A DNA stretch of 30,004 nt from a virus (lineage: Duplodnaviria > Heunggongvirae > Uroviricota > Caudoviricetes): the IMG/VR virus record IMGVR_UViG_3300032268_000658; one strand, written 5' to 3'. The position numbers and the translations under genes were made by a program. Shown here one piece after another: positions 2,399-26,590 of this stretch. How positions within the stretch are numbered: position 1 is the stretch's first letter; the number at the start of each line of letters is the position of its first letter. The notes beneath the pieces were generated by a model, which worked only from the letters and a program-made list of their open reading frames with translations, was not told where the DNA came from and searched no databases.

Positions 2399-2399
2399 A

Positions 2400-2753: not shown

Positions 2754-2950
2754 ATTTTGTGTTTTAATTCGTTACTTAATTTTATTTTTCTTACTCCTGG
2801 GTCTTTGGGTTCACAGTTCCCACAATGCCACACAATTTCAAAGTGTTCATTACTACAACATTCACATTTAATCCCGTACCTATAATACTTACGATATAGC
2901 TGACCTTCGTTATCACAAATCTCACATTTACCCCATTCGATTTCTCCCAT
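2750..2950 (-). CDS. Small Cys-rich putative zinc-binding protein (66 aa)
   Basis: CEIC...CECC...HCGNC. Start overlaps the upstream stop by 1 nt. Confidence 0.65.
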   Translation of the reverse strand: MGEIEWGKCEICDNEGQLYRKYYRYGIKCECCSNEHFEIVWHCGNCEPKDPGVRKIKLSNELKHKI

Positions 2951-3678: not shown

Positions 3679-3679
3679 A

Positions 3680-4459: not shown

Positions 4460-4688
4460 TAATTAATGTTTTTTCATTTTCTTCAAAAGGATTAAACCCT
4501 TTGTTTATGTGCCCACAAGATTCACATTTGTAAATCGGGAACGGTACTGTAGTGTCTTCAGATGAACCAGTCATAAGAGCAGAAACACGTTTAAGATAAA
4601 TAACTTCTTTGAAGTAGATTCCCTCACAACTTTCACATTTGATGGTAGGACAATCTCTTAAATTAATTTTTGGTTTTTCTAATTGCAT
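4452..4688 (-). CDS. Zinc-ribbon protein (78 aa)
   Basis: Two CxxC pairs (CESC...CESCGH); overlaps the sbcD start. Confidence 0.75.
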   Translation of the reverse strand: MQLEKPKINLRDCPTIKCESCEGIYFKEVIYLKRVSALMTGSSEDTTVPFPIYKCESCGHINKGFNPFEENEKTLIND

Positions 4689-4719
4689 ATTGTGTTTTAT
4701 TTTCTTTTATAAGTTTTAA

Positions 4720-4751
4720 AAAATATAATAAATAATATTCGTTTTTACAAA
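4720..4751 (-). promoter_or_regulatory. Candidate Bacteroidota-type promoter TTTG-N20-TATATTTT with a TATTTAT motif inside the spacer
   Basis: Minus strand TTTG at 4751-4748, 20-nt spacer, TATATTTT at 4727-4720 (one mismatch to TAnnTTTG). TATTTAT at 4734-4728. Confidence 0.5.
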
Positions 4752-5593: not shown

Positions 5594-6482
5594 CTATTTG
5601 TCCTCGTAAATCACAGATGTCTTTATCACCAGGTAATTTAACAATTTTTATTTTGTTATATAATCTACCACCGTTCAACTCGTGGTATAGTTTTAGTCCA
5701 TCTTTCCATGCATCACCGTCAGTACAGATGATTATATTCCCATTGGCTCTGTTGTATAAGTTTTCAAACAATAACTTACTCATCTTCTTCCCTAACATTA
5801 CAATAGAGTTTTCTAAAAAGAATCCGTCAAATGCTCCTTCAACCAAATAGACATCTTTCTCCCAATCAATTAATCCCTCGTTAAATATAATCTCATCTTT
5901 AGGAACCGTCGGGTTCTTGTATTTCATTTTGTTTGATATCCACGCCCTTGCAACAAAATAGTTTAAAGTACCTTCAGTGTTGAAGGATGGGACAATAATT
6001 CTATAGGCGAAGTCTCCTGATACGGTATACCCTATCTTATACTTCTCAATAATTTCTTCGGTAATACCTCTTGAGGTAAGATACCTCATGGCTTCAATGT
6101 GCGGTATAAACCTTGCGTTTGAATCTTTAAAGGTTGTATAACCTTCAGGAAGTCTTAATGTTGGTCGTTTAAGGTCTTCTTTCTTTAACTCCTCAGGTTT
6201 GATTAAGTTGTATAGTTTCTTTTGAGCTTTGGTTCCGTGTTTGTCAAATAACTTACCAAGAGGTCCTTGAGTTCCGTATGTTTCACCACAAGACCAACAC
6301 TTATAAACGTGTTTACCGTAGTTAATCTCAAGGTTACCTTTACCATCACCATGGTCTAACCCCTTATCTTCAGCACAGACAGGACAATCAAATGATATTT
6401 GACCTTTGGACTCGTAGTGTTGTTTGGGTTTCCCCAACACATCTGTAAGTAACTCTACTAATACTTCTATCTCATCTGACAT
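5568..6482 (-). CDS. dnaG: DNA primase, DnaG-type, with N-terminal zinc ribbon and TOPRIM domain
   Basis: CPVC...CWSC zinc-binding domain; RIIVPSF, YFVAR, KYKNP; TOPRIM YLVEGAFD, CTDGDAW and KDICD. Confidence 0.92.
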   Translation of the reverse strand: MSDEIEVLVELLTDVLGKPKQHYESKGQISFDCPVCAEDKGLDHGDGKGNLEINYGKHVYKCWSCGETYGTQGPLGKLFDKHGTKAQKKLYNLIKPEELKKEDLKRPTLRLPEGYTTFKDSNARFIPHIEAMRYLTSRGITEEIIEKYKIGYTVSGDFAYRIIVPSFNTEGTLNYFVARAWISNKMKYKNPTVPKDEIIFNEGLIDWEKDVYLVEGAFDGFFLENSIVMLGKKMSKLLFENLYNRANGNIIICTDGDAWKDGLKLYHELNGGRLYNKIKIVKLPGDKDICDLRGQIDEYYYEIK

Positions 6483-14157: not shown

Positions 14158-16410
14158 TTATGAACCTCCGCCTCCTCCTCCGCCTCCGCTTCCTCCTCCT
14201 CCACCACTTATTGATGCAGTATATGCGTCAGCACATACTTGACAGTCGGCAAATCCTTGAACTACAAATTTTGCAGTACTTGGTGTAATGTAATAATCTG
14301 TTACAATACCATCATAATTTAGAATAGTATAACAAAGACTACTTGTACTAACACTAACAATATTTCCTCCATCACTACCTGCAAATGCAAACGGTGCAAC
14401 ACTTGTTGGTGTATATATTGTTACGTTTTGTTCACTATCGTCACAAGCCCTTGCAGTGTATTTTCTATATGTCGGACAAGAAGAACATGATGTAATCGTA
14501 CTTACAAAAGGTTTTGATACAGTATAACTTGCATTTTGTACACCTACTTCACTATTGATTGTGATACAGAAATCATTAGTTCCATCATTACCTACTGCAA
14601 TTTCTCCAACTTTAACGTTGAAGTCTAAATAACTTGTTGTCGTACCAGCAACCCCAAATTCAAATATATTAATTGTAATTTGGGTAGGTTCAGAATAACA
14701 GCTCTTAACAATTATTGTTTGGTCGTTATCACATCTTGTTCCACTCCAATATTGATATTGTAGACATAATCCAATGCTAGCTGGTGTTTCCTCACAAGAT
14801 ACGCAAGTGGCATAAGTTATTGAAGGTGAGCCATCAAAATAGTTTCCTGAATACGTTACAGGTAATACCGTTGGTGGTGCAATGTATGTTGAATCAAATC
14901 TACCAATGTAGTTCCAACAAGTATTAAGTAAGTCTTTAAAAATTACTCCAGGTTGAGACACAAATGTCACTTTTTGTGTTTGAATCATTTGTGTTGGTAA
15001 CAAGTTAGGATATATTGGTGAACAACTTTCATACACATAAACATAATTAGGTGTTGTTGAAGGTGTTGGTGTCATTGTATGTGTTGGTGTATTAGTTGGT
15101 GTTGGCGTACTTGTTGGATTAGGTGTTGGTGGTGGAGTACTTCCAAAAGTTGACGTTGGCGATGGCGTTAATGTTGCGGTTGCAGTAATACTTGGTGTTG
15201 GTGTTTGAGAACTTGTTGGTGTAATAGTTGGCGTTGTTGTAATAGTTGGTGTTGGTGTTGGAATAATACTACAGTATTCACAAACCGAATAAAGTTGTAC
15301 GATATCTCCAACCACAGTATTTGATGAGAAGTTTGAATCATCTCTAGTATAACTAACACAATGGTATCCTCCGTTAAGTTCAACTAAAATAGTCATTCCA
15401 ATTACAACAGGAACTCCCATAAATGAAAGACCGTCTGTAACATAAAATTCATCACCTGATTGACAATCTGTTAATACCTTAACAGATACACAACTAAATG
15501 TTTCGTCTATCATTGGGAATGTTACTTGACCTCCTACAGGAACAGTATTTGTTAATGTAACTGAAGGTGTTAATGTTATTGTAGGTGTAACTGCTGGTGT
15601 ATATCCACTCATAACAAATGAAATACCCACTCCATTACAAATGTCACCAGTAGGTGTTGGTGTTGGAGTAACTCCAATAGTATCAACTATAAAGTTAATA
15701 TCATCACACGCGACACTTGGTGTTGGTGTTGGAAGTGGCTCCCAATCGCAGTCAAAATAGGCATTAAAGTCAAATGTTGAACAATTAACTTGAGTTGGTG
15801 TAGGTGTAGGGCAAACACCACTATAAAAATCATTTGCTGCAATATCAGGACAATCTGAATAACATGGTGTCGCTCCTTGTAAAACACAAGTTCCTCCAAG
15901 AGTATTAGATAAACACCAATAACTTTCCGTTACTCCACTATTATAATAAATTACGCCTGCAGTTGTTCCGTCACCAGAATAAGTTGGAGCTCCAGCATAT
16001 GTTGCTCCTTCAGTATAGTTGCCACTATAACCTGATAACGACGGCAAATAAGTATAGAAACAAAATACAGAATAACCACACCCTGATGGTACACTAAATA
16101 ACATAGGCATTAATTCCTCGGTTGGTGTCGGAGTTGGCGTTGGGCTAGATTCAGGAGTTGTTGTCGGAGTTGGCGTTGGAGTTGGTGTAGGACATTGAGT
16201 TTCTCCTCCCGTAAAAATTACTCCATTAGTTGAGTATATAGGACCTTCTTCATTATATGTAACCACTTTGGCAAATCCTGTAAATCCAGTACCTCCTACA
16301 ATACTATACACATATCCTTCAGTTAGTGTCCCTGGGATATTCTCAAATCTGAATAAGTTTGTGGAATCGTTACAGTCCTCAAATAAATAAATGTCGTATG
16401 GTTCGCTCAT
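14158..16410 (-). CDS. Large Cys-rich, Pro-Thr-tract probable virion surface protein with a Gly-rich C-terminal tail
   Basis: Several (PT)n tracts separating Cys-paired modules that end in CxxC (CEYC, CVSC, CSSC, CQVC); ends GGGGGSGGGGGGGS. TATTTAT motif upstream. Confidence 0.72.
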   Translation of the reverse strand: MSEPYDIYLFEDCNDSTNLFRFENIPGTLTEGYVYSIVGGTGFTGFAKVVTYNEEGPIYSTNGVIFTGGETQCPTPTPTPTPTTTPESSPTPTPTPTEELMPMLFSVPSGCGYSVFCFYTYLPSLSGYSGNYTEGATYAGAPTYSGDGTTAGVIYYNSGVTESYWCLSNTLGGTCVLQGATPCYSDCPDIAANDFYSGVCPTPTPTQVNCSTFDFNAYFDCDWEPLPTPTPSVACDDINFIVDTIGVTPTPTPTGDICNGVGISFVMSGYTPAVTPTITLTPSVTLTNTVPVGGQVTFPMIDETFSCVSVKVLTDCQSGDEFYVTDGLSFMGVPVVIGMTILVELNGGYHCVSYTRDDSNFSSNTVVGDIVQLYSVCEYCSIIPTPTPTITTTPTITPTSSQTPTPSITATATLTPSPTSTFGSTPPPTPNPTSTPTPTNTPTHTMTPTPSTTPNYVYVYESCSPIYPNLLPTQMIQTQKVTFVSQPGVIFKDLLNTCWNYIGRFDSTYIAPPTVLPVTYSGNYFDGSPSITYATCVSCEETPASIGLCLQYQYWSGTRCDNDQTIIVKSCYSEPTQITINIFEFGVAGTTTSYLDFNVKVGEIAVGNDGTNDFCITINSEVGVQNASYTVSKPFVSTITSCSSCPTYRKYTARACDDSEQNVTIYTPTSVAPFAFAGSDGGNIVSVSTSSLCYTILNYDGIVTDYYITPSTAKFVVQGFADCQVCADAYTASISGGGGGSGGGGGGGGS

Positions 16411-16691: not shown

Positions 16692-16784
16692 TATAGATTT
16701 TATCGAATAAATCACTTATGTTTTTTAACAAAGTATGAGTTATGCCCAAAAACCAAATAAATCATGATTTTATTAAAAAAAAAT

Positions 16785-17540
16785 ATGTCTGTTAAAATTT
16801 CAGTACTCGTAGTTAACCTTAATAATCTATTATACACAAAACAGTGTATTGAAGATTTATTAAATCAAGATGTAGAATTTAATTTAAGGTTAGTTGACCA
16901 AAATAGTTTGGAAGAAGGTACTAATGACTTTTTCAATAATTTTTTTTTACAATACAATAATGGTGAATTTAATGGTAAAATAAATTTTTTGGAAATAATA
17001 CACACAGGGTATAATCGTCCTCTAAATCACCTATGGAATGAATTTGTTAATACCTCATCAACAGATTTTTTATGTTTATTAAATAATGATGTTAGGTTAC
17101 CTCCTAATTTTCTATCAACATCAATTTCAGTATTAGAAAAAGAGCCTTTAGTTGGTTTTGTAAATCATGTAACCAATAATTTAAATTATTCATGTTGGTC
17201 TGATTTATTGGAATATCAAATTATGGAACAACCTTATAGACAAGGATGGGATATAACCTTTAGGAAATCTTTTTATAGTCAAATCCCAAAAGATTTAACT
17301 TTTTTCTATGGTGATGATTATATTTATTCAAAATTATATAGTTCAAATTATAAAGGAGCATATATTTTTAACTCACCAATAATCCATTTTGAACGTAGTA
17401 CTACAGTTGAAAAAGGTGGTTCACGAGATTGTACTCCTGATGGAAAGGTATTTCATTTATTAGAATTAGAACATAAAAATCTAACATTTAATCAAGAATT
17501 AAGTAAGTGGAAACCTCAATTTACAAAAATAAATAAATAA
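16785..17540 (+). CDS. Family 2 glycosyltransferase (GT-A fold)
   Basis: ISVLVVNLN...CIEDLL, LVDQNS, CLLNNDV and FFYGDDY motifs. Start placed at MSVKI (16785), after an A-rich leader. Confidence 0.85.
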   Translation: MSVKISVLVVNLNNLLYTKQCIEDLLNQDVEFNLRLVDQNSLEEGTNDFFNNFFLQYNNGEFNGKINFLEIIHTGYNRPLNHLWNEFVNTSSTDFLCLLNNDVRLPPNFLSTSISVLEKEPLVGFVNHVTNNLNYSCWSDLLEYQIMEQPYRQGWDITFRKSFYSQIPKDLTFFYGDDYIYSKLYSSNYKGAYIFNSPIIHFERSTTVEKGGSRDCTPDGKVFHLLELEHKNLTFNQELSKWKPQFTKINK

Positions 17541-17547
17541 TTACATA

Positions 17548-20289
17548 ATGAGAGAAATTAACTCTTTTGATATTTTCGATACTTTACTAACAAGAACTGT
17601 TGAAAATCCGATTGATATTTTTGAAATTGTTGAAAAACAATATCCATATAAAAATTTTAAAAATTTACGACTTCAATCTCAGAATCAGTCAAGTCAGACA
17701 ATGGACGCAATTTATAATGAATTTAAAATGCTCACAAATGAATCTGATGAAACCATAAATAAGTTAAGAGAATTTGAATTAATTACAGAAATGGAAAATA
17801 CTATTCCAATTTTTAGTAATATTTCAAAAATAAAAGACGGTGATATATTTGTTTCTGATATGTATCTGTCTTCAAATGAAATACGTAAATTACTTGATTA
17901 TCACAATATAAACAAAAATACGGAATTATTTGTTTCATCTGGAGGTAAAGCAGATGGTACAATGTGGGAGACTCTTACACAAACATATAAAATTAATTCT
18001 CATTATGGGGACAATCATCATTCTGATATTATGATGGCTTCAAGATATGGAATAAAAGGGGTTTACACAGAATCCTATAAATTCACAGTTTTAGAATCAC
18101 ATCTTATTCAAAACAATGAATTTGAGTTATGTCAACAAATAAGGAAATTTAGGCTTGCAAACCCATATGATGAAAATACTATAGAATACAAAATCTACGA
18201 ACAACAAATTTCTTACAATATACCAATACTATTATTCATTTGTAATAAACTAAATGAAATATTAATAAACGAAAATCTTGATACGGTATTATTTCTTTCA
18301 AGAGATGGGTGTTTATTATTAAAATTGTTTTCTCACTTATACCCACAATATAAATCAATATATTTACATTCTAGCAGAATAATTAATAATGATTATACTG
18401 ATGACTATATTTCATATTTGAAAAAAAATTATGATAAAGATAGTTGTATTTTATTTGATTTACATGGTTCATTAAACAGCGGGAGAAAACTATTTACCTC
18501 ATTTTTTGAACACTTACCTAGAATATTCATTTTTGACCTTTCTTATATTGAAAATTATATTAGTGAAATAACATATATTACCAATTACTCAAATAAAATA
18601 GAGGAGTTTAATCCAGATTATAAAGGTACATTAATTCAATTTATAAATAATGAAGATGTACGCGCTCCGAGTGAATATCCTCTAAAATATGTTGATATAA
18701 TCCATAGTGTTTTTGATTATTTTATAAAATATTTTGATGTAAATTTTAAAAACAGTACAATATTAAATAATACGGATTTCTTTAGAAATTATTATATAGA
18801 AACCGTATGTACCTCTAAATCTATTTTAAAAAATCAATTTGAATTTATGAATCTTACTGAATTAGCAAATAAGTACAACTCAGACAAAGGAAACGAATTC
18901 CTATGTGCTCACCACTACACACCAATGTACGAACAGATATTCAACAATATATTGAATACTAAGTTAGAGAAAAAAGATTTTTCTACATTTGAACTGTTAG
19001 AAATTGGATTAATGATACCAAGTAATCAAGCGGCGATTCCATCATTGATGATGTGGAACGATTTCTTTAACAAGAACATCAATATTACAGGATTCGATAT
19101 CGATACATGTTTCTTAAAGTTTAACGAGGACCAAAATATAGATATTAAAATTGGCGACCAATCAAATGAAAATGATTTATTACAATTAAAAAATAAAAAT
19201 TATGACACAATTATTGATGATGGTTACCATGCATCAAAACATCAACAAATTACATTCAAAACATTGTGGGAAAATGTAAAACCAGGTGGATATTTTATTA
19301 TTGAGGATTTACATTATCAACCAACGGAAGAATCGTGTGTAAAAACAAAAGAATTATTTGAAAATTGGGGTAACAATAATTGGATAGAAACTGAATATAT
19401 TAACTCAGACGAAATACAAATTATCAAAAAGGATATAGAGTCAATTGAGTTCTATGATTCAAAATCAACCAGGTGGGGAGATTCTGTAAAAAACGCGTTT
19501 GTGTATGTTAAAAAGAAAGATATAATAAGTATTATGAATAAAAATAGTATGAATCAAATTATACGATATGAATTCCCAGTAAAATCACAGTCAGAAGAAA
19601 AATATGATTACACAGATAAATCCTCAATTTTAAATATCAGAAATATTTTAAGTAAAAATGGTAAGTATAATTATTGTGAAATTGGTTCTTATTTAGGAGG
19701 TTCATTAGTTCCATTTTTAAGAGACCCTCAATGTGAATATATACTATCAGTTGATGATAGAGGTAATATACAACCAGATGAAAGGGGTATTAGTTATGAT
19801 TACAGACACATTTCAACTCAAACTATGTTAGATACATTATCGAAACATAGTTTAGACTTAACAAAATTAGAAACATTTGATGGTTCTATCCATGAATTAA
19901 ATAAAAACATCAATAAATTTGATTTAGTTTTTATAGATGGTGAACATACCGATTATGCATGTTTTAGAGACTTTATATATTCTCAAAAATACCTAAAAGA
20001 AAATTCAGTTGTTATGTTTCATGATAGTACTTTAGTATATAAATCATTAAAAATGATACAAGAGTATCTGAAATGTAGTAATGTAGTTCATAAATTTATT
20101 AAAATCCCAAATTCATCAGTAACGTTTATTTTTTTTGGTGATTATATTTCTTTTTGTACTGAATTTGAATCACAAGATGTTGAAGATTTTTATAATAAGT
20201 CAGAAGAAGAAGTTCTTTACCATATTATACAAAATAGAGTAGAAGGAAATTTTAGAATTAAAAATAAAACATACACTATAGGTGGTTAA
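17548..20289 (+). CDS. Fusion: polysaccharide-locus HAD-like hydrolase plus two class I SAM-dependent methyltransferase domains
   Basis: SFDIFDTLL, FVSDMYL, HYGDNHHSD and FLSRDG (HAD, COG5610-like). SDKG...HHYT, LLEIG, IIDDGYH and IIEDL (MTase 1). CEIGSYLGGS, FIDGEHT and MFHDS (MTase 2, Methyltransf_24-like). Confidence 0.8.
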   Translation: MREINSFDIFDTLLTRTVENPIDIFEIVEKQYPYKNFKNLRLQSQNQSSQTMDAIYNEFKMLTNESDETINKLREFELITEMENTIPIFSNISKIKDGDIFVSDMYLSSNEIRKLLDYHNINKNTELFVSSGGKADGTMWETLTQTYKINSHYGDNHHSDIMMASRYGIKGVYTESYKFTVLESHLIQNNEFELCQQIRKFRLANPYDENTIEYKIYEQQISYNIPILLFICNKLNEILINENLDTVLFLSRDGCLLLKLFSHLYPQYKSIYLHSSRIINNDYTDDYISYLKKNYDKDSCILFDLHGSLNSGRKLFTSFFEHLPRIFIFDLSYIENYISEITYITNYSNKIEEFNPDYKGTLIQFINNEDVRAPSEYPLKYVDIIHSVFDYFIKYFDVNFKNSTILNNTDFFRNYYIETVCTSKSILKNQFEFMNLTELANKYNSDKGNEFLCAHHYTPMYEQIFNNILNTKLEKKDFSTFELLEIGLMIPSNQAAIPSLMMWNDFFNKNINITGFDIDTCFLKFNEDQNIDIKIGDQSNENDLLQLKNKNYDTIIDDGYHASKHQQITFKTLWENVKPGGYFIIEDLHYQPTEESCVKTKELFENWGNNNWIETEYINSDEIQIIKKDIESIEFYDSKSTRWGDSVKNAFVYVKKKDIISIMNKNSMNQIIRYEFPVKSQSEEKYDYTDKSSILNIRNILSKNGKYNYCEIGSYLGGSLVPFLRDPQCEYILSVDDRGNIQPDERGISYDYRHISTQTMLDTLSKHSLDLTKLETFDGSIHELNKNINKFDLVFIDGEHTDYACFRDFIYSQKYLKENSVVMFHDSTLVYKSLKMIQEYLKCSNVVHKFIKIPNSSVTFIFFGDYISFCTEFESQDVEDFYNKSEEEVLYHIIQNRVEGNFRIKNKTYTIGG

Positions 20290-20313
20290 CCTATAACAAA
20301 TTTTAAGAATTAT

Positions 20314-23300
20314 ATGAAGAATAAAAAATCCTATGTTTTGTATTCAACTGAAAACTATTTTGATATTGTACAAATGGCTTGCAAATCAATCAGAACGTTT
20401 AGTAATTTACCAATATTTGTTTATTTACTTAACTCAGATTTAAAAGTTGATATTGAAAATACAACAACAATAAATTGGAAATTTAATTTTTCAGGTATTG
20501 ATGATTATAAAAAATCTTCTGTAACAAATTACTACATTGATAGAAGTAGTCAAAAAATATATGAACTATTAATTCAAAGACCTTTAATAGTTAAGGATGC
20601 CTTAGAGAAATATTCTGATGTGGTAGCATATGTTGATAGTGATTCAATCGCAACACAATATTGTGACAGAATATTTGAAATGTATAATTCAAAACTTGAT
20701 TACCCTTATTTTGCAGAAGGTATATATGAATACCTACATATTAATGGTCGTGGTGGAGCTGAGACACGAGAGGATATGAGTACAACCTTAGAACATCCAG
20801 CTTGTGAACTATTCGGAGCAAACCAATACATCAGACAGAAATATAGACAAACAGGTTACTTCGTGGCTGGTCCTAACACCATAGATTTCTTAGAAGAATG
20901 GTCTTGGATGTGTAACCATCCTAAAGTACTAAAAGACTTTAAACATTACGCAGCATACCATGAAGAAACAATTGCCAACGTATTATTATGGAAATATGGT
21001 CATCTTGATGGATTACCTTTAATCTACACCAATGGTGATAACCAAACCATAGATAAAATATTCAAAGAAGAGTTATTCACAGGAAAACCAAGAAACATAG
21101 GTCCTTGGTTCAAAATTCCTGGTAAGGAAGAAGACTTATTATTTGTTCACGGTGAGAAGAGAGGATTTATTCAAGAAGAAATGATTGAAAGACTTAAGAT
21201 TAGAGCGGCAGGATTAAAATTCAACTACGATATTAACCCAAAAAATAATTGGGGTGATGTCTTGTCTCAGTTTTTATTAGAACATTATTCAGGTAAAAAA
21301 TTAAACAAAGATGATGTATTCTACTTTGATGATGCCGCACATATGTTGGATAAAAACGGAAAGATTGTTGGAATTGGTAGTTCAATGAAATACGTTAGAA
21401 AAGACGATTATGTTTGGGGCACTGGTTGTATTGATGAGCATCACGTTGGTAACAAACCAAGAAAGGTTTATTCTGTACGTGGTCCGTTGACAAGAGACGT
21501 GTTATTAAAAAGAGGTTGGGATGTTCCTGAAGTTTATGGTGACCCCGCTCTTCTATTCCCTCAGATTTATAATCCAACAATAGAAAAAAAATATAAGATT
21601 GGTTTAATTCCTCATTGTGTAGATTTTTACTCTCTTGATGGATTAAAATCAATTAACCATATGGAAGATATGGGTATTAAAATTATTAATGTAACTGCAG
21701 GTATTAATGAATTCATAGACCAACTTAAAGAGTGTGAAACAATTATATCATCAAGTCTTCATGGATTGATTGCTGCAGACGCTTATGGTATTCCAAACTA
21801 TAGAGTTAAAATTTCTAAGTTAGTTCATGGTGGTGACTTTAAATATAAAGACCATTATGCATCAGTTAAAAGAGAACACTATGAACCATTACAACTTACA
21901 GAATTAACAAACTTAGATGAAGTTAACTCATTAAAGTTTGAGACTGGTGATATTAGTTTAGTAGATAAGTTATTGGAGAACACTCCATGGAATGACCCTG
22001 ATTGTACATACATTCAGAACGCTCCAACTAAGAAGATTAAGTTATTGTTCTTAGCTCCGCATCTATCAACTGGTGGAATGCCAGGGTTTTTATTAAGAAG
22101 AATTGAACTACTTCAAGCTCATTGTCCTGAATTGGAAATCTTTGTTGTAGAACACGGATTCTATGGAGATGCATATGTTGTTCAAAGAAATAAGATTAAA
22201 GAAATATTACCTGAAAACCATTTTTGGAGTTTAGGTGATGATAAGATGAAATTAATTCAAATATTAAAGGACAATGAAATTGATATCGTTCACGTAGATG
22301 AAATGATTGAAGGTTTTGATAGTTTCAATAAGGTATCCAACGAATTAATGAAAGAACTATACTCCAACGAAAGAACTTGGAGAATGGTGGAAACTTGTCA
22401 TAACGTTTGGTTTGACCCAGGTGCTCACAAAATATATCATCCTGACGCTTACGCATTCTGTACCCCATACCATAAGGAAAAAACATTCGCAGATGTTCCT
22501 TCTTATAGTGAGGTATTAGAGTTCCCTATTGAAAGAATGTTTAGAACCAATGAAGAACAATTAATATCACAAAAGAAATTAGAATTAGATATCAATAAGA
22601 TTCACGTTATTAATGTTGGTCTTTGGACTTCAGGTAAGAACCAAGTTGAAGGTGTTGAGATTGCAAGATTACTTGAAAAGTCTAATCCAGAAATTCAGTT
22701 TCATTTTATTGGTAATCAAGCTCCAAACTTCAAGTCATATTGGGAACCTGTAATGAATAACTTGCCATCAAACGTTAAGATTTGGGGTGAGAGAAGTGAT
22801 GTATCGACATTCATGAAAGCTGCAGATGTATTCATGTTCAATTCAACTTGGGAATGTAATCCATTAGTATTGAGAGAAGCTGCTTCATATGGTCTTAAGA
22901 TTTTATCAAGAAATCTACCTCAATATATGGATATGTTTACACCATATATTACACCAATCGATGAAGATATTAACCAAACAAAAGATAGTCTATTGTCTTT
23001 AATTAATAACGAAAGAAGTTATGATTTAGAAATAGGTCAAGGTAAGAAATTTGCTTTGGACCACTTTAATTTTTATGAACTTATGAATAGTAAAGAACCT
23101 AAAAAACTAACAAAAATAAATTCAAACATTAAGATTACACAATACTTTGTTAATCAACCATTCTTGGAAATTACAGGTAATAGTGATGCAACGTTTGAAA
23201 TTAAATTCTTTGATGAATATGGAGTTTGTCATTACCACAATAAAACTGAATCAAATAGATGGTTTAAACTTAATAGAGAATACTTTACTAAGTGGCAAAC

Positions 23301-24189
23301 TAAAGTTTGGGAAGATGGAACATTAATCTATGATGATACTTTAGATTATAAAGGTAAGAAAGTCTTTATCTCATTCGATAGTGCGTCATTAGGTGATACA
23401 ATCGCTTGGATACCATACGTATTAGAATTTAAAAAGAAACATGAATGTGATGTTGTTGTTTCAACACACAAAAACTTCTTATTTGAAAATGTTTATCCTG
23501 AACTTGAATTTGTTAATCCAGGTTCTACGGTTAACGGTATTCACGGTATGTATACCCTTGGTTGGTTCTACAATGTTAATAAAGAACCTGAAATGCCAAA
23601 CACAATACCTTTACAACAAACAGCAACAAACATCTTAGGATTAAAATATGAGGAGATTCAACCAAGAATTGATTATAAAATTAATGACCGACCTTATGAA
23701 GGTAAGTACGTTACAATCGCAACCAACTCAACTTCAGGATGTAAGTTTTGGACTAAAGAAGGATGGCAAGAATTAATTAATCATTTACATTCATTAGGTT
23801 ATAAAGTAATTAATGTATCCAAAGAAAAAAACCCATTCAAAAACGCAGAACAGATTAAAGATACCTCAATGGAAAACACAATGAACGTAATTCATCATAG
23901 TGAGTTCTTTATTGGTTTATCGAGTGGTTTATCTTGGTTAGCTTGGGGTATGGGTAAAAATATTGTTATGATTAGTAACTTTACTGAACCTGACCATGAG
24001 TTCACCACAAACTGTACAAGAATTGTTAAACTTGATGTTTGTAACGGATGTTGGAATAGTCCGATTTACAAATTTGATAAAGGTGATTGGGATTGGTGTC
24101 CTGTTCATAAAGGAACCAAAAGACAATTTGAATGTCATAAAACAATTACATCAAAAATGGTGATTGACCAAATACAACACTTATTATAA
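20314..24189 (+). CDS. Four-domain glycan enzyme: GT-A-like domain, polysaccharide pyruvyltransferase, GT4, and Aah/TibC-type strand-loop-strand O-heptosyltransferase domain
   Basis: VAYVDSD and HEETIANVLLW (GT-A-like). NNWGD, VGIGS, SVRGPLTR, GDPALL, IGLIPH and SSSLHGLIAADAYGIP (pyruvyltransferase). APHLSTGGMP and NSTWECNPLVLREA (GT4). SLGDTIAWIPY...F, FIGLSSGLSWLAW and CNGCWN...WCP...QFEC (Aah/TibC, with the metal-binding Cys cluster). Confidence 0.88.
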   Translation: MKNKKSYVLYSTENYFDIVQMACKSIRTFSNLPIFVYLLNSDLKVDIENTTTINWKFNFSGIDDYKKSSVTNYYIDRSSQKIYELLIQRPLIVKDALEKYSDVVAYVDSDSIATQYCDRIFEMYNSKLDYPYFAEGIYEYLHINGRGGAETREDMSTTLEHPACELFGANQYIRQKYRQTGYFVAGPNTIDFLEEWSWMCNHPKVLKDFKHYAAYHEETIANVLLWKYGHLDGLPLIYTNGDNQTIDKIFKEELFTGKPRNIGPWFKIPGKEEDLLFVHGEKRGFIQEEMIERLKIRAAGLKFNYDINPKNNWGDVLSQFLLEHYSGKKLNKDDVFYFDDAAHMLDKNGKIVGIGSSMKYVRKDDYVWGTGCIDEHHVGNKPRKVYSVRGPLTRDVLLKRGWDVPEVYGDPALLFPQIYNPTIEKKYKIGLIPHCVDFYSLDGLKSINHMEDMGIKIINVTAGINEFIDQLKECETIISSSLHGLIAADAYGIPNYRVKISKLVHGGDFKYKDHYASVKREHYEPLQLTELTNLDEVNSLKFETGDISLVDKLLENTPWNDPDCTYIQNAPTKKIKLLFLAPHLSTGGMPGFLLRRIELLQAHCPELEIFVVEHGFYGDAYVVQRNKIKEILPENHFWSLGDDKMKLIQILKDNEIDIVHVDEMIEGFDSFNKVSNELMKELYSNERTWRMVETCHNVWFDPGAHKIYHPDAYAFCTPYHKEKTFADVPSYSEVLEFPIERMFRTNEEQLISQKKLELDINKIHVINVGLWTSGKNQVEGVEIARLLEKSNPEIQFHFIGNQAPNFKSYWEPVMNNLPSNVKIWGERSDVSTFMKAADVFMFNSTWECNPLVLREAASYGLKILSRNLPQYMDMFTPYITPIDEDINQTKDSLLSLINNERSYDLEIGQGKKFALDHFNFYELMNSKEPKKLTKINSNIKITQYFVNQPFLEITGNSDATFEIKFFDEYGVCHYHNKTESNRWFKLNREYFTKWQTKVWEDGTLIYDDTLDYKGKKVFISFDSASLGDTIAWIPYVLEFKKKHECDVVVSTHKNFLFENVYPELEFVNPGSTVNGIHGMYTLGWFYNVNKEPEMPNTIPLQQTATNILGLKYEEIQPRIDYKINDRPYEGKYVTIATNSTSGCKFWTKEGWQELINHLHSLGYKVINVSKEKNPFKNAEQIKDTSMENTMNVIHHSEFFIGLSSGLSWLAWGMGKNIVMISNFTEPDHEFTTNCTRIVKLDVCNGCWNSPIYKFDKGDWDWCPVHKGTKRQFECHKTITSKMVIDQIQHLL

Positions 24190-24860
24190 TGGATACAAAT
24201 AAATTTATATGGGAGCCTGAATGTCACGAAGGTTTTAAAGAAATTGTAGAACAAGAAATATTTGTAGAACGAATTTATGAAAAATTTTTTGAGGTTGAGG
24301 AGGGTGATGTGGTATTTGATGTTGGAGCTAGTTTAGGCCCGTTCACTTATTCAATATTAGAAAAAAATCCTTCTCATGTGTTTACGTTTGAACCAAGTTT
24401 TGAAGAGTTTAAAACTTTAGTATTAAACACCCGTCAAGGACCTGTAACACATATCAATAAAGGTATTTCAAATCATGTTGGAGAATTCCCATTTGAACAT
24501 GTATTTGACGTTGGTGATAGTGGAAAATATTATTCAACAACATTTAAGAAAGTAATTGAAGATTATAATATTCAAAAGATAGATTTTTTAAAATCCGATT
24601 GTGAAGGTGGTGAATACGATATCTTTAATGCCGAAAATCTATTATGGATTAAACAAAATGTTAGTAAGATTGCGGGTGAGTGGCACTTAGGAAATCCTGA
24701 ATTTAAACAAAAATTTAGAATTTTTAGAGATACTTACTTAAGACTTTTTCCTAATTTTAAAGTTAGGTCTTACAAAGGTTACAATATTGAAGAAAGACTT
24801 TGGACGGATGAGTTCATTGAATCTTTTAGTGAAATAATGATTTATATTGACAATAGATAG
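24189..24860 (+). CDS. FkbM-family methyltransferase
   Basis: VFDVGASLG, FTFEP, IDFLKSDCEGGE and IAGEWH. TAATG coupling with the upstream gene. Confidence 0.88.
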   Translation: MDTNKFIWEPECHEGFKEIVEQEIFVERIYEKFFEVEEGDVVFDVGASLGPFTYSILEKNPSHVFTFEPSFEEFKTLVLNTRQGPVTHINKGISNHVGEFPFEHVFDVGDSGKYYSTTFKKVIEDYNIQKIDFLKSDCEGGEYDIFNAENLLWIKQNVSKIAGEWHLGNPEFKQKFRIFRDTYLRLFPNFKVRSYKGYNIEERLWTDEFIESFSEIMIYIDNR

Positions 24861-24876
24861 TAAATTGATATTTTTT
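24847..24876 (+). promoter_or_regulatory. Candidate internal Flavobacterium-type promoter TTG-N19-TATTTTTT
   Basis: TTG at 24847-24849, 19-nt spacer, TATTTTTT at 24869-24876 (one mismatch to TAnnTTTG). Confidence 0.35.
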
Positions 24877-24893
24877 TAAAAACAAGATAAATT

Positions 24894-25766
24894 ATGAATA
24901 TAATATTTCAAATTAATGGTGGTATAGGCAAAGTAGTTGCCGCCACAGCAGTCTGTAAATCAATCAAGGTTAAGTATCCTGACAGTAAACTTATTGTAGT
25001 GAGTGGATACCCTGATGTATTTTTAAACAATCCAAATGTAGATAGGTCATTTGCTTTTGGTCAACAACAATATTTCTATCAAGAGTATATTGAAAATCAA
25101 GAGTTTATAGTCTTTGGTCATGACCCTTATTTAGATACCACACATTTAAAGTTTGAGGAACATTTAATAGAAACTTGGTGTAGAATATATGACTTACCTT
25201 TTATTCAAAAACAAGGAGAAATATTCTTAACACAAAGAGAAATTGATTTTTATTCTCAAAAATACATATCTGACAAACCTATATTTTTGTTACAAACTAA
25301 TGGAGGAGGAGATAGTAATGTAAAGTATTCTTGGGCTAGAGATATTCCACATAATATAGTGAGAGATGTCATAGAACAATTTAGAGCAGATTATAATATG
25401 GTTCATATTAGAAGAGATGACCAAATGAGTTATGAACATGCTATTGGTGTTAGTGATAACTTTAGAAGCTTAGTGGTACTTATTAACCTAAGTAGTAAAA
25501 GATTATTAATGGATAGCTTTGCACAACATGTTGCCGCAGCATTAAATTTATCATCAGTTGTATTATGGGTAGTTAATAGTCCTAAGGTGTTTGGGTATGA
25601 TATTCATACCAATATAATTGCCAATCCTGAAACTAAAAAGTCAGATATAAGAGCTGCTTATTTAAGTAAATATAATATTGGAGGAGAACTAGTTGAGTTT
25701 CCTTACGATAATGAAACTGAGATTTTTAATATTGGAAATATCTTTAAAGAATTTGAAAACAAATAA
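24894..25766 (+). CDS. GT9-like (ADP-heptose transferase family, GT-B fold) glycosyltransferase
   Basis: INGGIGKVVAATAVCKSIKVKYPDSKLIV, FLNNPNVD and LLMDSFAQHVAAALNLSSVVLW parallel the GT9 G.GD...P.A.I and DSG.MH.AAA motifs, but K replaces the usual D after GIG. Confidence 0.72.
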   Translation: MNIIFQINGGIGKVVAATAVCKSIKVKYPDSKLIVVSGYPDVFLNNPNVDRSFAFGQQQYFYQEYIENQEFIVFGHDPYLDTTHLKFEEHLIETWCRIYDLPFIQKQGEIFLTQREIDFYSQKYISDKPIFLLQTNGGGDSNVKYSWARDIPHNIVRDVIEQFRADYNMVHIRRDDQMSYEHAIGVSDNFRSLVVLINLSSKRLLMDSFAQHVAAALNLSSVVLWVVNSPKVFGYDIHTNIIANPETKKSDIRAAYLSKYNIGGELVEFPYDNETEIFNIGNIFKEFENK

Positions 25767-25768
25767 AT

Positions 25769-26590
25769 ATGGAAAAAATATTCTATCAAAGTTCTCTACC
25801 TAGAAGCGGTAGTACACTTTTACAAAACATACTAGCTCAGAATCCTGATATATATGCTACACCCACAAGTGGTGTACTTGAATTAATATTTGGAGCACGT
25901 GCTAATTATACTAACTCGCCCGAATTTAAAGCTCAAGATGTTGAACTTATGAAGAAAGGATGGCAGGCATTTGCTAAGAATGGTATGGATGCATTCTACA
26001 ACGCTATTACAGATAAGAAATATGTAATAGATAAAAGCAGAGGTTGGGGTGTACACTATGACTTTTTACAGTTTGTACAAGGAGGTGAACCTAAGATTAT
26101 TTGCATGGTAAGAGACCTTAGAGATATATTTGCTTCTATGGAGAATAACTTTAGAAAGTTTCCTGAAAAGCAATCAGACATTTTAGATTGGTCTAAAGGT
26201 CAAGGAACTACAGTACCTAAGCGTGTTGATATTTGGGCACAGTCTCCACCAGTTGGTATAGCTATTGAAAGACTTAGTGAGATATTTAGAACAGGTATAA
26301 ATGCTAAAATGCATTTTGTAAAGTTTGAGGACTTATGTTTATACCCAGATAATACAATGATACAACTATATCAATACTTAGAGATTCCTTACTACAAGCA
26401 TGACTTTGATAATATAGAACAAGTAACAAAAGAAGATGATGAAGTGTATGGTTCTTTTGGAGACCATACTATTCGTAAAAAATTAGAACCTGTAAGAAGT
26501 AAAGCTAAGGAGTTATTAGGTAAAGATGTCACTGATTGGATTTATACAAACTATGAATGGTTTTTTAAACAATTTAGATATACTAAGTAA
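25769..26590 (+). CDS. PAPS-dependent sulfotransferase
   Basis: 5'-phosphosulfate loop SLPRSGSTLL, IDKSR, 3'-phosphate motif VRDLRDIFAS, and VKFEDL. Confidence 0.88.
   Translation: MEKIFYQSSLPRSGSTLLQNILAQNPDIYATPTSGVLELIFGARANYTNSPEFKAQDVELMKKGWQAFAKNGMDAFYNAITDKKYVIDKSRGWGVHYDFLQFVQGGEPKIICMVRDLRDIFASMENNFRKFPEKQSDILDWSKGQGTTVPKRVDIWAQSPPVGIAIERLSEIFRTGINAKMHFVKFEDLCLYPDNTMIQLYQYLEIPYYKHDFDNIEQVTKEDDEVYGSFGDHTIRKKLEPVRSKAKELLGKDVTDWIYTNYEWFFKQFRYTK

What the first reader, a model, noticed from the sequence alone, without database searches (positions are those of the whole stretch)
20314..24189. Four-enzyme glycan assembly-line polyprotein ending in an Aah/TibC O-heptosyltransferase domain
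Seen: one 1291-aa ORF with a GT-A-like domain (about aa 1-295), a pyruvyltransferase (about 300-560), a GT4 (about 575-925) and a full Aah/TibC-like domain (about 940-1291) including the CNGCWN..WCP..FEC cluster. Established: TibC/Aah are stand-alone, iron-binding, ring-forming oligomers that use ADP-heptose. Inference: the fusion could hang initiation, extension and pyruvate-capping activities on one oligomeric scaffold, giving a processive glycosylation machine. The order reads C- to N-terminal as prime, extend, cap. No ADP-heptose biosynthesis genes are in the window, so the donor may come from the host or be a different sugar.
Basis: partly seen in the sequence, partly recalled or inferred. 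Interest (0 to 1): 0.75.

Follow-up and report, generated by a model that had tools for sequence, protein, structure and literature searches.

The report
Phage four-enzyme fibre-glycosylating protein
An uncultured phage encodes one long protein that joins four sugar-handling enzymes, the last a true relative of the E. coli adhesin-glycosylating enzyme TibC, and it most likely sugar-coats the phage's own serine/threonine-rich fibres, which nobody has yet tested.

Summary
ORF 20314-24189 (+, 1291 aa) has four domains. The first is a GT-A fold with an invariant DxD motif and no Pfam family. The others are a pyruvyltransferase, a GT4 with EX7E, and a TibC/Aah-family domain (TIGR04414 288.9 bits against a cut-off of 200; model versus TibC 4RAP, Z 40).

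The catalytic Asp, Thr/Lys/Trp donor contacts and all four iron-binding Cys are kept. Two features are lost: the beta-hairpin thumb tip that closes TibC's dodecameric ring (10-residue deletion) and the adenine-contacting Arg (Thr here).

The window is phage DNA. The gene lies in a seven-gene block of soluble glycan enzymes, flanked by Pro/Thr-linker proteins and a Gly-Thr-Ser collagen-like fibre.

Relatives are abundant and modular in metagenomes. The same four-domain order is in 87 of the 119 nearest clusters, and I found no paper on any of them.

Of 60 related phage loci with at least 3 kb of downstream flank, 49 have a convergent (Gly-Thr/Ser-Ser)n gene downstream. Among 145 phage and bacterial loci, 77 of 100 reduced-thumb loci have such a neighbour, against 1 of 45 full-thumb loci.

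Best reading (0.55): cytoplasmic O-glycosylation of the phage's own fibres. The ring-scaffold idea is weakened. This scan reached the same reading on other DNA in eight earlier findings.

The parts
20314..24189 (+). 1291-aa four-domain glycan-assembly protein (P0001)
   Evidence: ORF; translation; domain evidence
20314..21213 (+). D1 (aa 1-300): GT-A-fold glycosyltransferase with a DxD motif (D108, D110) and no Pfam family
   Evidence: No Pfam hit. Alignment A1 of 40 sequences has D108, D110 and H279-G-E-K282 invariant. AF2 model pLDDT 89.6. Foldseek hits GT6, ABO and UGGT structures at E about 1e-7. BFVD best hit is a 985-aa protein of Virus NIOZ-UU157, 50% identity, TM 0.91
21214..22023 (+). 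D2 (aa 301-570): polysaccharide pyruvyltransferase-family domain
   Evidence: Pfam PF04230, E 2e-15, aa 383-495 on profile positions 123-273 of 280. tblastn finds 37-42% identity in Lak megaphages and in Cobetia phage Carin-5, where it is annotated 'putative pyruvyl transferase'. S479-S-S-L-H-G484 is invariant in 17 of 17 sequences. No PDB match by sequence
22024..23118 (+). D3 (aa 571-935): GT4-type GT-B glycosyltransferase with EX7E (E847..E855)
   Evidence: Pfam PF00534 E 6.8e-12 and PF13692. Aligned to Cps3D and RfaG. E847 and E855 invariant
23119..24189 (+). D4 (aa 936-1291): TibC/Aah-family protein O-glycosyltransferase domain, thumb-less branch
   Evidence: TIGR04414 288.9 bits against cut-off 200. 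4rap_A E 1.7e-51. AF2 pLDDT 95.5. VIA-align Z 40.1, rmsd 2.1 over 348 residues against 4rap_A, with the next family (GT9) at Z about 20. Residue mapping
16764..17540 (+). GT2-family glycosyltransferase, first gene of the + strand block
   Evidence: Pfam PF00535, E 4.3e-7
17548..20289 (+). 913-aa protein with two methyltransferase domains; its N-terminal ~430 aa are unassigned
   Evidence: PF13578 E 2.6e-13 and PF13847. phrog_21658 methyltransferase. No family for aa 1-431
24189..24860 (+). FkbM-family methyltransferase; its start overlaps the stop of P0001 by one base
   Evidence: PF05050 E 1.1e-9. TIGR01444. Junction sequence read
24894..25766 (+). 290-aa protein of unknown family; a conserved neighbour in 12 of 80 related loci
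   Evidence: Searches find no family. Neighbour count
25769..26590 (+). Sulfotransferase
   Evidence: PF13469 E 2.2e-15. phrog_27463 E 3.7e-44. Present in 14 of 80 related loci
26590..27387 (+). Second FkbM-family methyltransferase, last gene of the block
   Evidence: PF05050 E 1.9e-14. TIGR01444 93.6 bits
27392..27421 (+). Terminator-like hairpin (12-bp stem, then a T run) that closes the + strand block
   Evidence: The total number of terminator-like sites in the region (3) is no more than in shuffles (mean 3.1), so only its position speaks for it
27813..30002 (-). C-terminal 729 aa of a fibre-like protein that runs off the window. It has Gly-Thr-Ser/Thr triplets followed by Gly/Ser/Asn/Cys-rich repeats. 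Candidate acceptor
   Evidence: Translation. Pfam Collagen E 5.6e-6 (26.5 bits, just under the 27.2 cut-off). phrog_366 tail fibre, E 3.7e-4. Homologues in 28 of 80 related loci
14158..16410 (-). 750-aa protein with long Thr-Pro linkers; second candidate acceptor
   Evidence: Translation. phrog_15511. Homologues in 14 of 80 loci
9885..12494 (-). 869-aa protein with Thr-Pro linkers and an SprB repeat; third candidate acceptor
   Evidence: Translation. PF13573 E 1.4e-7. Homologues in 12 of 80 loci

Best explanation
The 1291-aa protein is a soluble, cytoplasmic, multi-enzyme O-glycan builder encoded by an uncultured tailed phage. I propose it decorates the phage's own Ser/Thr-rich fibre proteins as they are made in the infected cell.

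Proposed mechanism:
1. The C-terminal TibC-like domain transfers the first sugar from a host-supplied nucleotide sugar directly onto Ser hydroxyls of the (Gly-Thr/Ser-Ser)n collagen-like fibre. Asp1028 acts as the base, as in TibC. The sugar is possibly a heptose and the nucleotide is uncertain. The Thr-Pro linker proteins may also be acceptors.
2. The fused GT4 and GT-A domains and the separate GT2 extend the glycan.
3. The pyruvyltransferase domain, the methyltransferases and the sulfotransferase of the same gene block add acidic and methyl caps.

Shown: the domain identities, the conserved catalytic-type residues, the phage context, the absence of membrane or lipid-carrier components in the block, and the recurrent adjacency to Gly-Thr-Ser repeat genes.

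Inferred: the acceptor, the donor, the order of action and the oligomeric state. A dimer through the iron finger is more likely than TibC's 12-mer ring, because the ring contact is deleted.
For: Phage context. The window encodes SbcC/SbcD-like proteins, an exonuclease, a primase and a RuvC-like protein. Relatives lie on IMG/VR contigs of up to 321 kb, one of which has terminal repeats.

D4 is a true TibC relative: TIGR04414 288.9 bits against 200 and Z 40.1 against 4rap_A. In 146 D4-type domains, D110, K230 and W305 are kept in 146 of 146, T226 is T in 138 and S in 7, and each iron Cys is kept in 144 of 146.

TibC acts directly on Ser of a folded or unfolded protein in the cytoplasm (PMC4358343, passages read). 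All seven proteins of the + strand block lack hydrophobic segments: no 19-residue window reaches Kyte-Doolittle 1.6. No lipid-carrier pathway family was hit in the block.

Acceptor candidates flank the block: a Gly-Thr-Ser fibre and two Thr-Pro-linker proteins.

Across 80 IMG/VR loci:
- 60 have an ORF with at least 6 consecutive Gly-X-Y triplets.
- Of 60 loci with at least 3 kb downstream, 49 have one downstream. All 58 such ORFs are convergent.
- X is Thr in 64% and Ser in 21% of triplets. Y is Ser in 73% and Thr in 10%.

The same pairing occurs in distant phages. Examples are cultured Microcystis phage Mel-JY01 (D4 39% identical, TIGR04414 317 bits) and the 735-kb phage LR756501 (46%).

It also occurs in bacteria. 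There, stand-alone reduced-thumb enzymes sit beside lipoproteins with (Gly-Ser/Thr-Ser)n repeats.

On 145 loci of at least 10 kb, a Ser/Thr-rich Gly-X-Y neighbour is present in 1 of 45 full-thumb loci, 11 of 18 mid-thumb loci and 66 of 82 short-thumb loci. Among the full-thumb bacterial loci, the largest neighbour carries AIDA repeats in 19 of 41 tested.

The block ends at a terminator-like hairpin.
Against: No glycan, glycoprotein or enzyme activity has been observed, so everything about acceptor and donor rests on gene neighbourhood.

The link between thumb state and Gly-X-Y neighbours is a split between clades. Thumb state changes only 3 times on the tree. Only 2-3 independent pairs exist, so the sign test has no power.

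Eleven of the 60 loci with enough downstream flank lack a Gly-X-Y gene. LR756504 has a stand-alone homologue with none within 15 kb.

In the window the fibre is cut by the window end, so only about 22 triplets are visible. Its Pfam Collagen score is just under the cut-off.

Pyruvyl-, sulfo- and methyltransferases are classically polysaccharide enzymes.

TibC modifies Ser only, so the Thr-Pro linkers would need another transferase.

The adenine-contacting Arg286 is Thr here, and R286A abolished or largely diminished TibC's activity. The donor therefore cannot simply be assumed to be ADP-heptose.
Confidence: 0.55

Rival explanations
1. The gene block remodels a host surface polysaccharide (LPS, capsule or exopolysaccharide) during infection, for example to block superinfection or to alter receptors. 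On this view the TibC-like domain is just one more glycosyltransferase acting on a glycan.
For: Pyruvyltransferase (PF04230), sulfotransferase with a weak NoeE-like match, FkbM methyltransferases, GT2 and GT4 are all typical of polysaccharide pathways. The block has a lower G+C (0.25-0.33) than the flanking structural genes (0.37-0.40), as glycan islands often do.
Against: The block has no initiating phosphoglycosyltransferase, flippase, polymerase or ligase, and no membrane segment in any of its 7 proteins. The only characterised members of the D4 family act on proteins (PMC4358343). The conserved partner across phages and bacteria is a Ser/Thr repeat protein rather than a polysaccharide locus.
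Confidence: 0.15
2. The TibC-like domain forms an iron-containing ring like TibC's dodecamer, and the ring holds the other three activities as a processive assembly line. The line uses ADP-heptose and works in the order C-terminal to N-terminal: prime, extend, cap.
For: All four iron-finger Cys and F368 are conserved. The N-terminal beta-barrel and the overall fold match TibC over 348 residues. Fusing the domains does put several activities on one chain. The GT4-TibC pair is present in 80 of 80 related loci.
Against: The thumb tip (TibC 261-270, with F265 and V266) that makes the ring contact is deleted, and the model has no hairpin there. TibC thumb mutants are dimers. Arg286, which gives ADP specificity, is Thr. 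Domain order and content vary: D2 is in 1 of 80 IMG/VR loci, and the order is D3-D1-..-D4 in 6 of 80. The oligomer could not be modelled.
Confidence: 0.12
3. The enzyme glycosylates proteins other than the neighbouring fibres. Candidates are the capsid or tail tube (as in mycobacteriophages) and host envelope proteins.
For: Mycobacteriophage capsid and tail-tube glycosylation is cited in PMC12619734 (passage read). In bacteria the reduced-thumb relatives sit beside lipoproteins, so host lipoproteins with such repeats could also be acceptors.
Against: No capsid or tail-tube gene is conserved next to the gene. The most frequent conserved neighbours are the fibre (28 of 80 loci) and the glycan enzymes.
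Confidence: 0.1
4. The enzymes hypermodify phage DNA with sugars.
For: Phage glycosyltransferases often act on DNA (PMC12619734 passage; preprint 10.1101/2023.12.21.572611, search listing only).
Against: No hydroxymethylase or base-modification gene was hit in the window. The D4 family, the pyruvyltransferase and the sulfotransferase have no known DNA substrates.
Confidence: 0.02

Closest known systems
TibC and Aah/AAH of E. coli (bacterial autotransporter heptosyltransferases, BAHT; TIGR04414; PDB 4RAP/4RB4; PMC4358343)
   Same: Same sequence family and fold: beta-barrel, GT-B core and four-Cys iron finger. The catalytic Asp, the Thr/Lys phosphate contacts and the Trp sugar contact are the same. 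The position that sets heptose stereoselectivity carries the AAH-type Ser.
   Different: The domain is fused behind three other enzymes rather than standing alone. It is encoded by a phage. It lacks the thumb tip needed for the dodecamer and the Arg that reads adenine. No autotransporter is nearby; the conserved neighbour is a Gly-Thr/Ser-Ser repeat fibre instead of an AIDA-repeat beta-helix.
Chlorovirus PBCV-1 A064R, a three-domain viral protein with two glycosyltransferases and a methyltransferase that builds capsid glycans (recalled from memory; the giant-virus glycan review PMC9614988 was seen only as a search listing)
   Same: A virus-encoded, soluble, multi-domain enzyme that carries several steps of glycan assembly for a virion protein.
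   Different: It comes from a eukaryotic virus, makes N-linked glycans, and has different folds with no TibC-like priming domain. No sequence relation was tested here.
Mycobacteriophage virion glycosylation (Freeman et al. 2023, cited in PMC12619734; passage read, paper itself not read)
   Same: Phage-encoded glycosyltransferases decorate the phage's own virion proteins.
   Different: There the acceptors are the C-termini of capsid and tail-tube subunits, and the enzymes are separate small glycosyltransferases. No TibC-family enzyme or collagen-like acceptor is described in the passage I read.
BclA of Bacillus anthracis exosporium and glycosylated-Thr cuticle collagen of the vent worm Riftia (both recalled from memory, no call)
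   Same: Collagen-like Gly-X-Thr repeats that carry O-linked sugars. In Riftia the sugar on Thr is reported to stabilise a hydroxyproline-free triple helix, which suggests one use for sugars on a proline-free Gly-Thr-Ser fibre.
   Different: Different organisms and unrelated glycosyltransferases. Nothing here was compared by tool.

Membership tests
TibC/Aah autotransporter O-heptosyltransferases (BAHT, TIGR04414) | Scores above the curated family model cut-off | tested here: met
   288.9 bits against cut-off 200, aa 959-1289
TibC/Aah autotransporter O-heptosyltransferases (BAHT, TIGR04414) | Fold: N-terminal beta-barrel plus atypical GT-B core plus iron-finger insertion | tested here: met
   AF2 model pLDDT 95.5. 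4rap_A at Z 40.1, rmsd 2.1, 348 residues aligned, model 3-356 on chain 21-387. The next family, GT9, is at Z about 20
TibC/Aah autotransporter O-heptosyltransferases (BAHT, TIGR04414) | Catalytic base Asp110 and donor contacts Thr226, Lys230, Trp305 | tested here: met
   D1028, T1140, K1144 and W1208 on the alignment. These columns are kept in 146/146 (D), 138 T plus 7 S, 146/146 (K) and 146/146 (W). Roles are taken from PMC4358343
TibC/Aah autotransporter O-heptosyltransferases (BAHT, TIGR04414) | Arg286 contacting adenine N1 (ADP specificity) | tested here: not met
   Thr1189 in the window. Across 146 domains the column reads T 48, R 29, V 24, I 15, L 12, A 10, S 6. It is Thr in 75 of 76 short-thumb phage loci
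TibC/Aah autotransporter O-heptosyltransferases (BAHT, TIGR04414) | Four Cys of the 1Fe-0S iron finger (C339, C342, C358, C370) | tested here: met
   C1243, C1246, C1262 and C1274. Each is kept in 144 of 146 domains. Iron binding itself cannot be tested with these tools
TibC/Aah autotransporter O-heptosyltransferases (BAHT, TIGR04414) | Beta-hairpin thumb with a hydrophobic tip (F265, V266) that closes the dodecameric ring | tested here: not met
   TibC 261-270 falls in a 10-residue gap of the window protein. The interval is 15 residues here against 25 in two named BAHTs. DSSP of the model shows coil and no hairpin
TibC/Aah autotransporter O-heptosyltransferases (BAHT, TIGR04414) | Dodecameric ring; ADP-heptose donor; O-heptosylation of Ser | not testable with these tools
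TibC/Aah autotransporter O-heptosyltransferases (BAHT, TIGR04414) | Stand-alone gene next to its AIDA-repeat autotransporter substrate | tested here: not met
   The domain is fused, and no AIDA or autotransporter family was hit in the window. Among full-thumb bacterial loci, 19 of 41 largest neighbours carry AIDA repeats
GT4 (Glycos_transf_1) retaining GT-B glycosyltransferases | Pfam match above cut-off and the EX7E motif | tested here: met
   PF00534 45.7 bits against 26.4. E847 and E855 are invariant in 17 of 17 sequences. The motif's name is recalled
Polysaccharide pyruvyltransferases (PF04230) | Pfam match above cut-off | tested here: met
   57.9 bits against 25.3, but only profile positions 123-273 of 280 are matched
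Polysaccharide pyruvyltransferases (PF04230) | Catalytic and PEP-binding residues of solved pyruvyltransferases | tested here: inconclusive
   No solved structure was matched by sequence or by profile. Only an invariant SSSLHG motif was noted
GT-A fold, retaining-type glycosyltransferases (GT6/GT8/GT24-like) | Rossmann-like GT-A fold with a DxD metal/nucleotide motif | tested here: met
   Model pLDDT 89.6. Foldseek probability 1.00 to GT6 and UGGT structures, but TM only about 0.5. D108 and D110 are invariant in 40 of 40 sequences. CAZy family membership was not established, and no Pfam family is hit

The most novel reading that the evidence does not exclude
A thumb-less branch of the TibC family has changed acceptor, from beta-helical autotransporters to proline-free Gly-Thr/Ser-Ser 'collagen' repeats. 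In phages this branch is the priming module of freely shuffled multi-enzyme proteins. These proteins build pyruvylated, methylated and sulfated O-glycans on virion fibres up to thousands of residues long. The sugars may be what holds such proline-free triple helices together, and they may shape how the fibre meets the host surface. In bacteria the same branch would glycosylate a previously unnoticed class of Gly-Ser/Thr-Ser lipoproteins.
Probability: 0.35. Interest if true: 0.8.

Novelty: new variant of a known kind. Interest (0 to 1): 0.62.

Why it matters
Protein glycosylation of phage particles is known only from a few cases such as mycobacteriophages. TibC-type enzymes are known only as virulence helpers of enterobacterial adhesins.

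If this reading is right, a large and abundant set of environmental phages would coat their fibres with complex acidic glycans. In the 50%-identity library, 1510 clusters match D4 at E up to 0.001 and 748 at E up to 1e-30, and most of the 150 best matches are multi-domain proteins. The priming enzyme would be borrowed from the TibC family.

Several consequences would follow:
- It would bear on host recognition, on particle stability in water and on how fibre genes are annotated. In the one cultured carrier I found, the Gly-Thr-Ser ORF is not annotated at all.
- It offers a natural toolbox of fused glycosyltransferases.
- The loss of the ring contact and of the adenine-reading Arg makes this branch a test case for how oligomeric state and donor choice evolve in the family.
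- A cultured phage (Microcystis phage Mel-JY01) makes the idea directly testable.

Tried and rejected
- **Whole genome.** None is held for this window. The rest of the 116-kb contig was not examined.
- **Close cultured relative.** Megablast of 25 kb of the window against the phage collection found nothing.
- **D2 against solved structures.** The PDB sequence search for D2 alone gave only chance hits to p73 SAM domains (E 0.4-0.7). The whole-protein profile matched only TibC and GT4 structures.
- **Neighbours.** A relaxed Pfam search of the neighbouring proteins added nothing above cut-off. The only hint was a beta-roll match for the fibre (LbR_Ice_bind, E 0.018, 15.6 bits against cut-off 30).
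- **Cytidylyltransferase-like neighbour.** The 128-aa protein found in 15 related loci is not heptose-specific. It passes only the general TIGR00125 domain model. Its best specific hits are NMN adenylyltransferases far below cut-off.
- **Heptose and sugar-activation genes.** rfaE domain II gave one weak hit in 1 of 5 phage records (55.5 bits against 181.5). NTP_transferase was found in 0 of 5.
- **Promoters.** Promoter-like sites are no more frequent than in shuffles (76 against 77.9), so no promoter is claimed.
- **Independent-pairs test.** The test of thumb state against Gly-X-Y neighbours has only 2-3 pairs and no power.
- **Repeat pattern scan.** The scan of three complete relatives listed only the first places. 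All 100 listed for the 321-kb record lie at bases 7-1940. All 50 listed for the 118-kb record lie at 23,593-27,752, within the fibre genes mapped in L031. A further 223 places were not listed, so I make no claim that the repeats occur only next to the gene.
- **Downstream FkbM.** I considered and rejected the idea that the downstream FkbM gene is a split-off C-terminus. In the 1493-aa relatives the extra module is N-terminal.
- **DNA glycosylation.** Considered and given 0.02.

Full report
**Observation.** The window has one ORF at 20314-24189 on the + strand, 1291 aa.
- Pfam gives a pyruvyltransferase (PF04230, aa 383-495, E 2e-15), a GT4 (PF00534, aa 753-900, E 6.8e-12) and a weak GT9 match (aa 1127-1232).
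- The C-terminal 356 aa pass NCBI's equivalog model for Aah/TibC (TIGR04414, 288.9 bits against a cut-off of 200).
- They also match TibC in the PDB at E 1.7e-51.
- The first 300 aa hit no Pfam family, either here or in 11 relatives that carry this domain. With a 40-sequence alignment they fold confidently (pLDDT 89.6) into a GT-A fold.
- The nearest solved structures to that fold are the retaining GT6 enzymes and the UGGT catalytic domain (Foldseek E about 1e-7, TM only about 0.5). D108 and D110 (YVDSDS) are invariant in 40 of 40 sequences.

**Context.** The window is phage DNA.
- On the - strand lie SbcC/SbcD-like, exonuclease, primase and RuvC-like genes and large proteins of phage-only families.
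- There is no near-identical cultured phage. The primase is about 31% identical to those of Flavobacterium phages.
- The gene sits in a + strand block (16764-27387) of seven genes: GT2, a 913-aa double methyltransferase, the four-domain protein, an FkbM methyltransferase, a 290-aa unknown, a sulfotransferase and a second FkbM methyltransferase.
- None of the seven has a membrane-like segment. The block is poorer in G+C (0.25-0.33) than its flanks (0.37-0.40).
- The block ends at a 12-bp terminator-like hairpin at 27392-27421.
- On both sides lie - strand genes for Ser/Thr-rich proteins. Two carry long Thr-Pro linkers (14158-16410 and 9885-12494). The third is a fibre-like protein (27813-30002, cut by the window end) that begins, as far as it is visible, with Gly-Thr-Ser/Thr triplets.

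**The TibC-like domain compared with TibC.** I read passages of the TibC structure paper (PMC4358343) and mapped its key residues by hand on the alignment.
- Kept: the catalytic base (D110 to D1028), the phosphate contacts (T226 to T1140, K230 to K1144), the heptose O4 contact (W305 to W1208), F368 (F1272) and all four iron ligands (C339/342/358/370 to C1243/1246/1262/1274).
- The stereoselectivity position (P300 in TibC, Ser in AAH) is Ser1203.
- Not kept, first: Arg286, which reads adenine N1 and whose Ala mutant abolished or largely diminished activity, is Thr1189.
- Not kept, second: the tip of the beta-hairpin thumb (TibC 261-270, including F265 and V266) falls in a 10-residue gap.
- The AF2 model of the domain (pLDDT 95.5) superposes on 4RAP with Z 40.1 and rmsd 2.1 over 348 residues, beta-barrel included. 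GT9 enzymes come next at Z about 20. The model shows coil where the hairpin should be.
- In 146 D4-type domains (144 from a library clustered at 50% identity, the window's own and two named BAHTs) D110, K230 and W305 are invariant, and each Cys is kept in 144. The Arg column is mixed (T 48, R 29, V 24, I 15 and others). The thumb interval falls in two main groups, 15-16 residues in 80 domains and 21-27 in 61, with the named BAHTs at 25.
- The domain is therefore a true member of the sequence family, on a branch that has lost two features tied to TibC's ring and to its ADP specificity.

**How common the architecture is.**
- A word-indexed search found 1269 proteins of 710-2260 aa with E up to 0.001 among the 8000 candidates scored. 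It found 3941 shorter ones among 4838 candidates, many of them ~695-aa GT4-TibC two-domain proteins.
- The exhaustive search of 50%-identity representatives found 1510 clusters at E up to 0.001 and 748 at E up to 1e-30. Most of the top 150 are 500-2000 aa.
- I mapped the window's four segments onto the 119 nearest clusters. The counts are 27 D1-D2-D3-D4, 59 with an extra N-terminal module, 1 with a C-terminal extra, 16 X-D1-D3-D4, 8 D1-D3-D4, 5 D1-X-D1-D3-D4, 2 D2-D3-D4 and 1 X-D3-D4.
- In 80 IMG/VR loci (56 distinct full-length D4 matches) the pattern is D1-D3-D4 in 64, D3-D4 in 8, D3-D1-..-D4 in 6, one contig-cut D2-D3-D4 and one split into two ORFs.
- Extra modules include FkbM, GT32, GT25, class I methyltransferases and DUF6165.
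- The GT4-TibC pair is therefore the constant core. The GT-A domain is nearly constant. The pyruvyltransferase is an insertion special to the window's subclade.
- The exact architecture is common but, as far as my searches go, uncharacterised.

**The likely acceptor.**
- Of the 80 IMG/VR loci, 60 hold an ORF with at least six consecutive Gly-X-Y triplets and 23 hold Pro/Thr-rich proteins.
- Of 60 loci with at least 3 kb of downstream flank, 49 have a Gly-X-Y ORF downstream, and all 58 such ORFs are convergent. Runs reach 778 triplets.
- X is Thr (64%) or Ser (21%) and Y is Ser (73%) or Thr (10%), with hardly any Pro.
- The pairing recurs far outside this lineage. In cultured Microcystis phage Mel-JY01 a 1226-aa CDS is annotated 'methyltransferase FkbM'. 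It carries GT4 and TibC-like domains (TIGR04414 317 bits) and lies 1.7 kb from an unannotated ORF with a run of 149 Gly-Thr/Ser-Ser triplets.
- In the 735-kb phage LR756501 a 738-aa GT4-TibC ORF lies near a Gly-Ser/Thr-Ser fibre. LR756504 has a stand-alone homologue and no such gene within 15 kb.
- In bacterial genomes, stand-alone reduced-thumb homologues in Methylococcales, Arenicellales and other MAGs and isolates sit beside small lipoproteins. These have (Gly-Ser/Thr-Ser)n repeats and acidic tails.
- On 145 loci of at least 10 kb, a Ser/Thr-rich Gly-X-Y neighbour occurs in 1 of 45 with a full thumb, 11 of 18 with a mid-length thumb and 66 of 82 with a short thumb.
- Of the full-thumb bacterial loci, the largest neighbour carries AIDA repeats in 19 of 41 tested.
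- This is a split between clades. The thumb state changes only three times on the tree, and the independent-pairs test has no power. It is a consistent pattern and not a statistical proof.

**Donor.**
- No heptose-pathway gene is in the window.
- In five related phage records, three rated complete, gmhA was found in 0 of 5. rfaE domain II gave one sub-threshold hit in 1 of 5. Sugar-1-phosphate nucleotidyltransferases were found in 0 of 5. Epimerase/dehydratase genes were found in 2 of 5.
- Nucleotide sugars must therefore come mainly from the host.
- The sugar-side contacts of TibC are kept but the adenine contact is not. A heptose is possible, and the nucleotide is open.
- Some relatives carry an APS-kinase-like gene next to the sulfotransferase (16 of 80 loci). 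This fits sulfated products.

**Mechanism proposed.** TibC-type enzymes put sugar directly on Ser of a protein in the cytoplasm. The whole block is soluble and has no lipid-carrier machinery.
1. The D4 domain primes Ser in the Gly-Thr/Ser-Ser fibre.
2. The GT4, GT-A and GT2 enzymes extend the glycan.
3. The pyruvyl-, methyl- and sulfotransferases cap it.
4. This happens on the phage's own fibre proteins before assembly.

The steps shown and the steps inferred are listed under Best explanation. I put this at 0.55. The main rival is host polysaccharide remodelling (0.15).

- The domain reading is right, and the C-terminal domain does group with Aah/TibC.
- The ring-scaffold idea is weakened by the missing thumb.
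- The C-to-N assembly-line order is not conserved among relatives.
- The architecture is not rare.

**Literature and earlier notes.**
- Searches for TibC + phage + heptosyltransferase gave 6 papers, none on a phage enzyme by title and abstract.
- Searches for Mel-JY01, for collagen-like + phage + O-glycosylation + tail fiber and for O-heptosyltransferase + collagen-like each gave 0 papers.
- A five-term search on collagen-like, bacteriophage, glycosylated, glycosyltransferase and fiber gave 5 papers, none describing this by title and abstract.
- A paper on large aquatic 'moraphages' mentions four core glycosyltransferase groups but no heptosyltransferase, pyruvyl, sulfotransferase or collagen terms.
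- Subscription journals are not covered.
- After I had reached this reading, the scan's own notes showed eight earlier findings on other DNA with the same reading. They agree with mine but are not independent evidence.

**Limits.**
- Only the C-terminal 729 aa of the window's fibre are visible.
- The rest of the contig could not be read.
- Cluster names could not be read, and oligomers could not be modelled.
- The host is unknown. An SprB repeat and weak similarity to Flavobacterium phages hint at Bacteroidota, but that is a guess.

Noticed in passing
L083 (Microcystis phage Mel-JY01, PP395634.1) 2-3052 +: This is an open frame of 1016 aa with a run of 149 Gly-Thr/Ser-Ser triplets and a globular C-terminus, and it is not annotated. 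The record instead annotates hypothetical proteins on the opposite strand (1-651 and 739-2298). The frame is open at the first base of the linear record, so the gene may continue at the other end of the genome.
   Followed up: partly
L100 8516-8929, 11172-11783, 12125-12586 (-); L105 8503-8883, 11246-11872 (-); L099 7793-8473, 8572-9000 (-): In bacterial chromosomes and MAGs (Arenicellales, Gammaproteobacteria, Acidiferrobacterales), stand-alone reduced-thumb TibC-like genes are flanked by small proteins. These have a lipoprotein-type signal (..GCGGG..), long Gly-Ser/Thr-Ser repeats and poly-Asp/Glu tails. They may be an unnoticed class of glycosylated lipoproteins.
   Followed up: partly
P0244, P0251, P0260, P0265; P0256: Some metagenomic proteins match the TibC-like domain in 3-4 separate stretches. 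P0256 (1243 aa) holds two full TibC-like domains in tandem, both with the longer thumb.
   Followed up: no
window 16764-27387 against its flanks: The seven-gene glycan block has a G+C of 0.25-0.33. The flanking structural genes have 0.37-0.40. This suggests the block has a different origin or is an exchangeable cassette.
   Followed up: partly
window 14158-16410 (-), C-terminus of P0122: The Thr-Pro-linker protein ends in a pure Gly/Ser tail (..SGGGGGSGGGGGGGGS). The fibre P0121 holds a nearly exact internal duplication of a Cys/Thr-rich ~30-residue unit (..TSVNTPILTSTNCVTATNCVSSALVCGT..).
   Followed up: no
L120 (Flavobacteriales MAG contig, 11.9 kb): This is the single full-thumb, Arg-containing TibC-like domain that has a Ser/Thr Gly-X-Y neighbour (286 triplets). 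Its largest neighbour is a GT4 protein, so the contig may be phage DNA binned with a bacterium.
   Followed up: no
L010 5961-7208 (-) and 6 further related loci: A PF11397 'GlcNAc' glycosyltransferase (E 1.9e-71) recurs near the gene in 7 of 80 related phage loci. From memory, this is the family of the Skp1 hydroxyproline GlcNAc-transferase.
   Followed up: no
window 1-6482 (-): SbcC-like (cut by the window start), SbcD-like, exonuclease and primase genes form a replication and recombination module upstream of the structural and glycan region.
   Followed up: no
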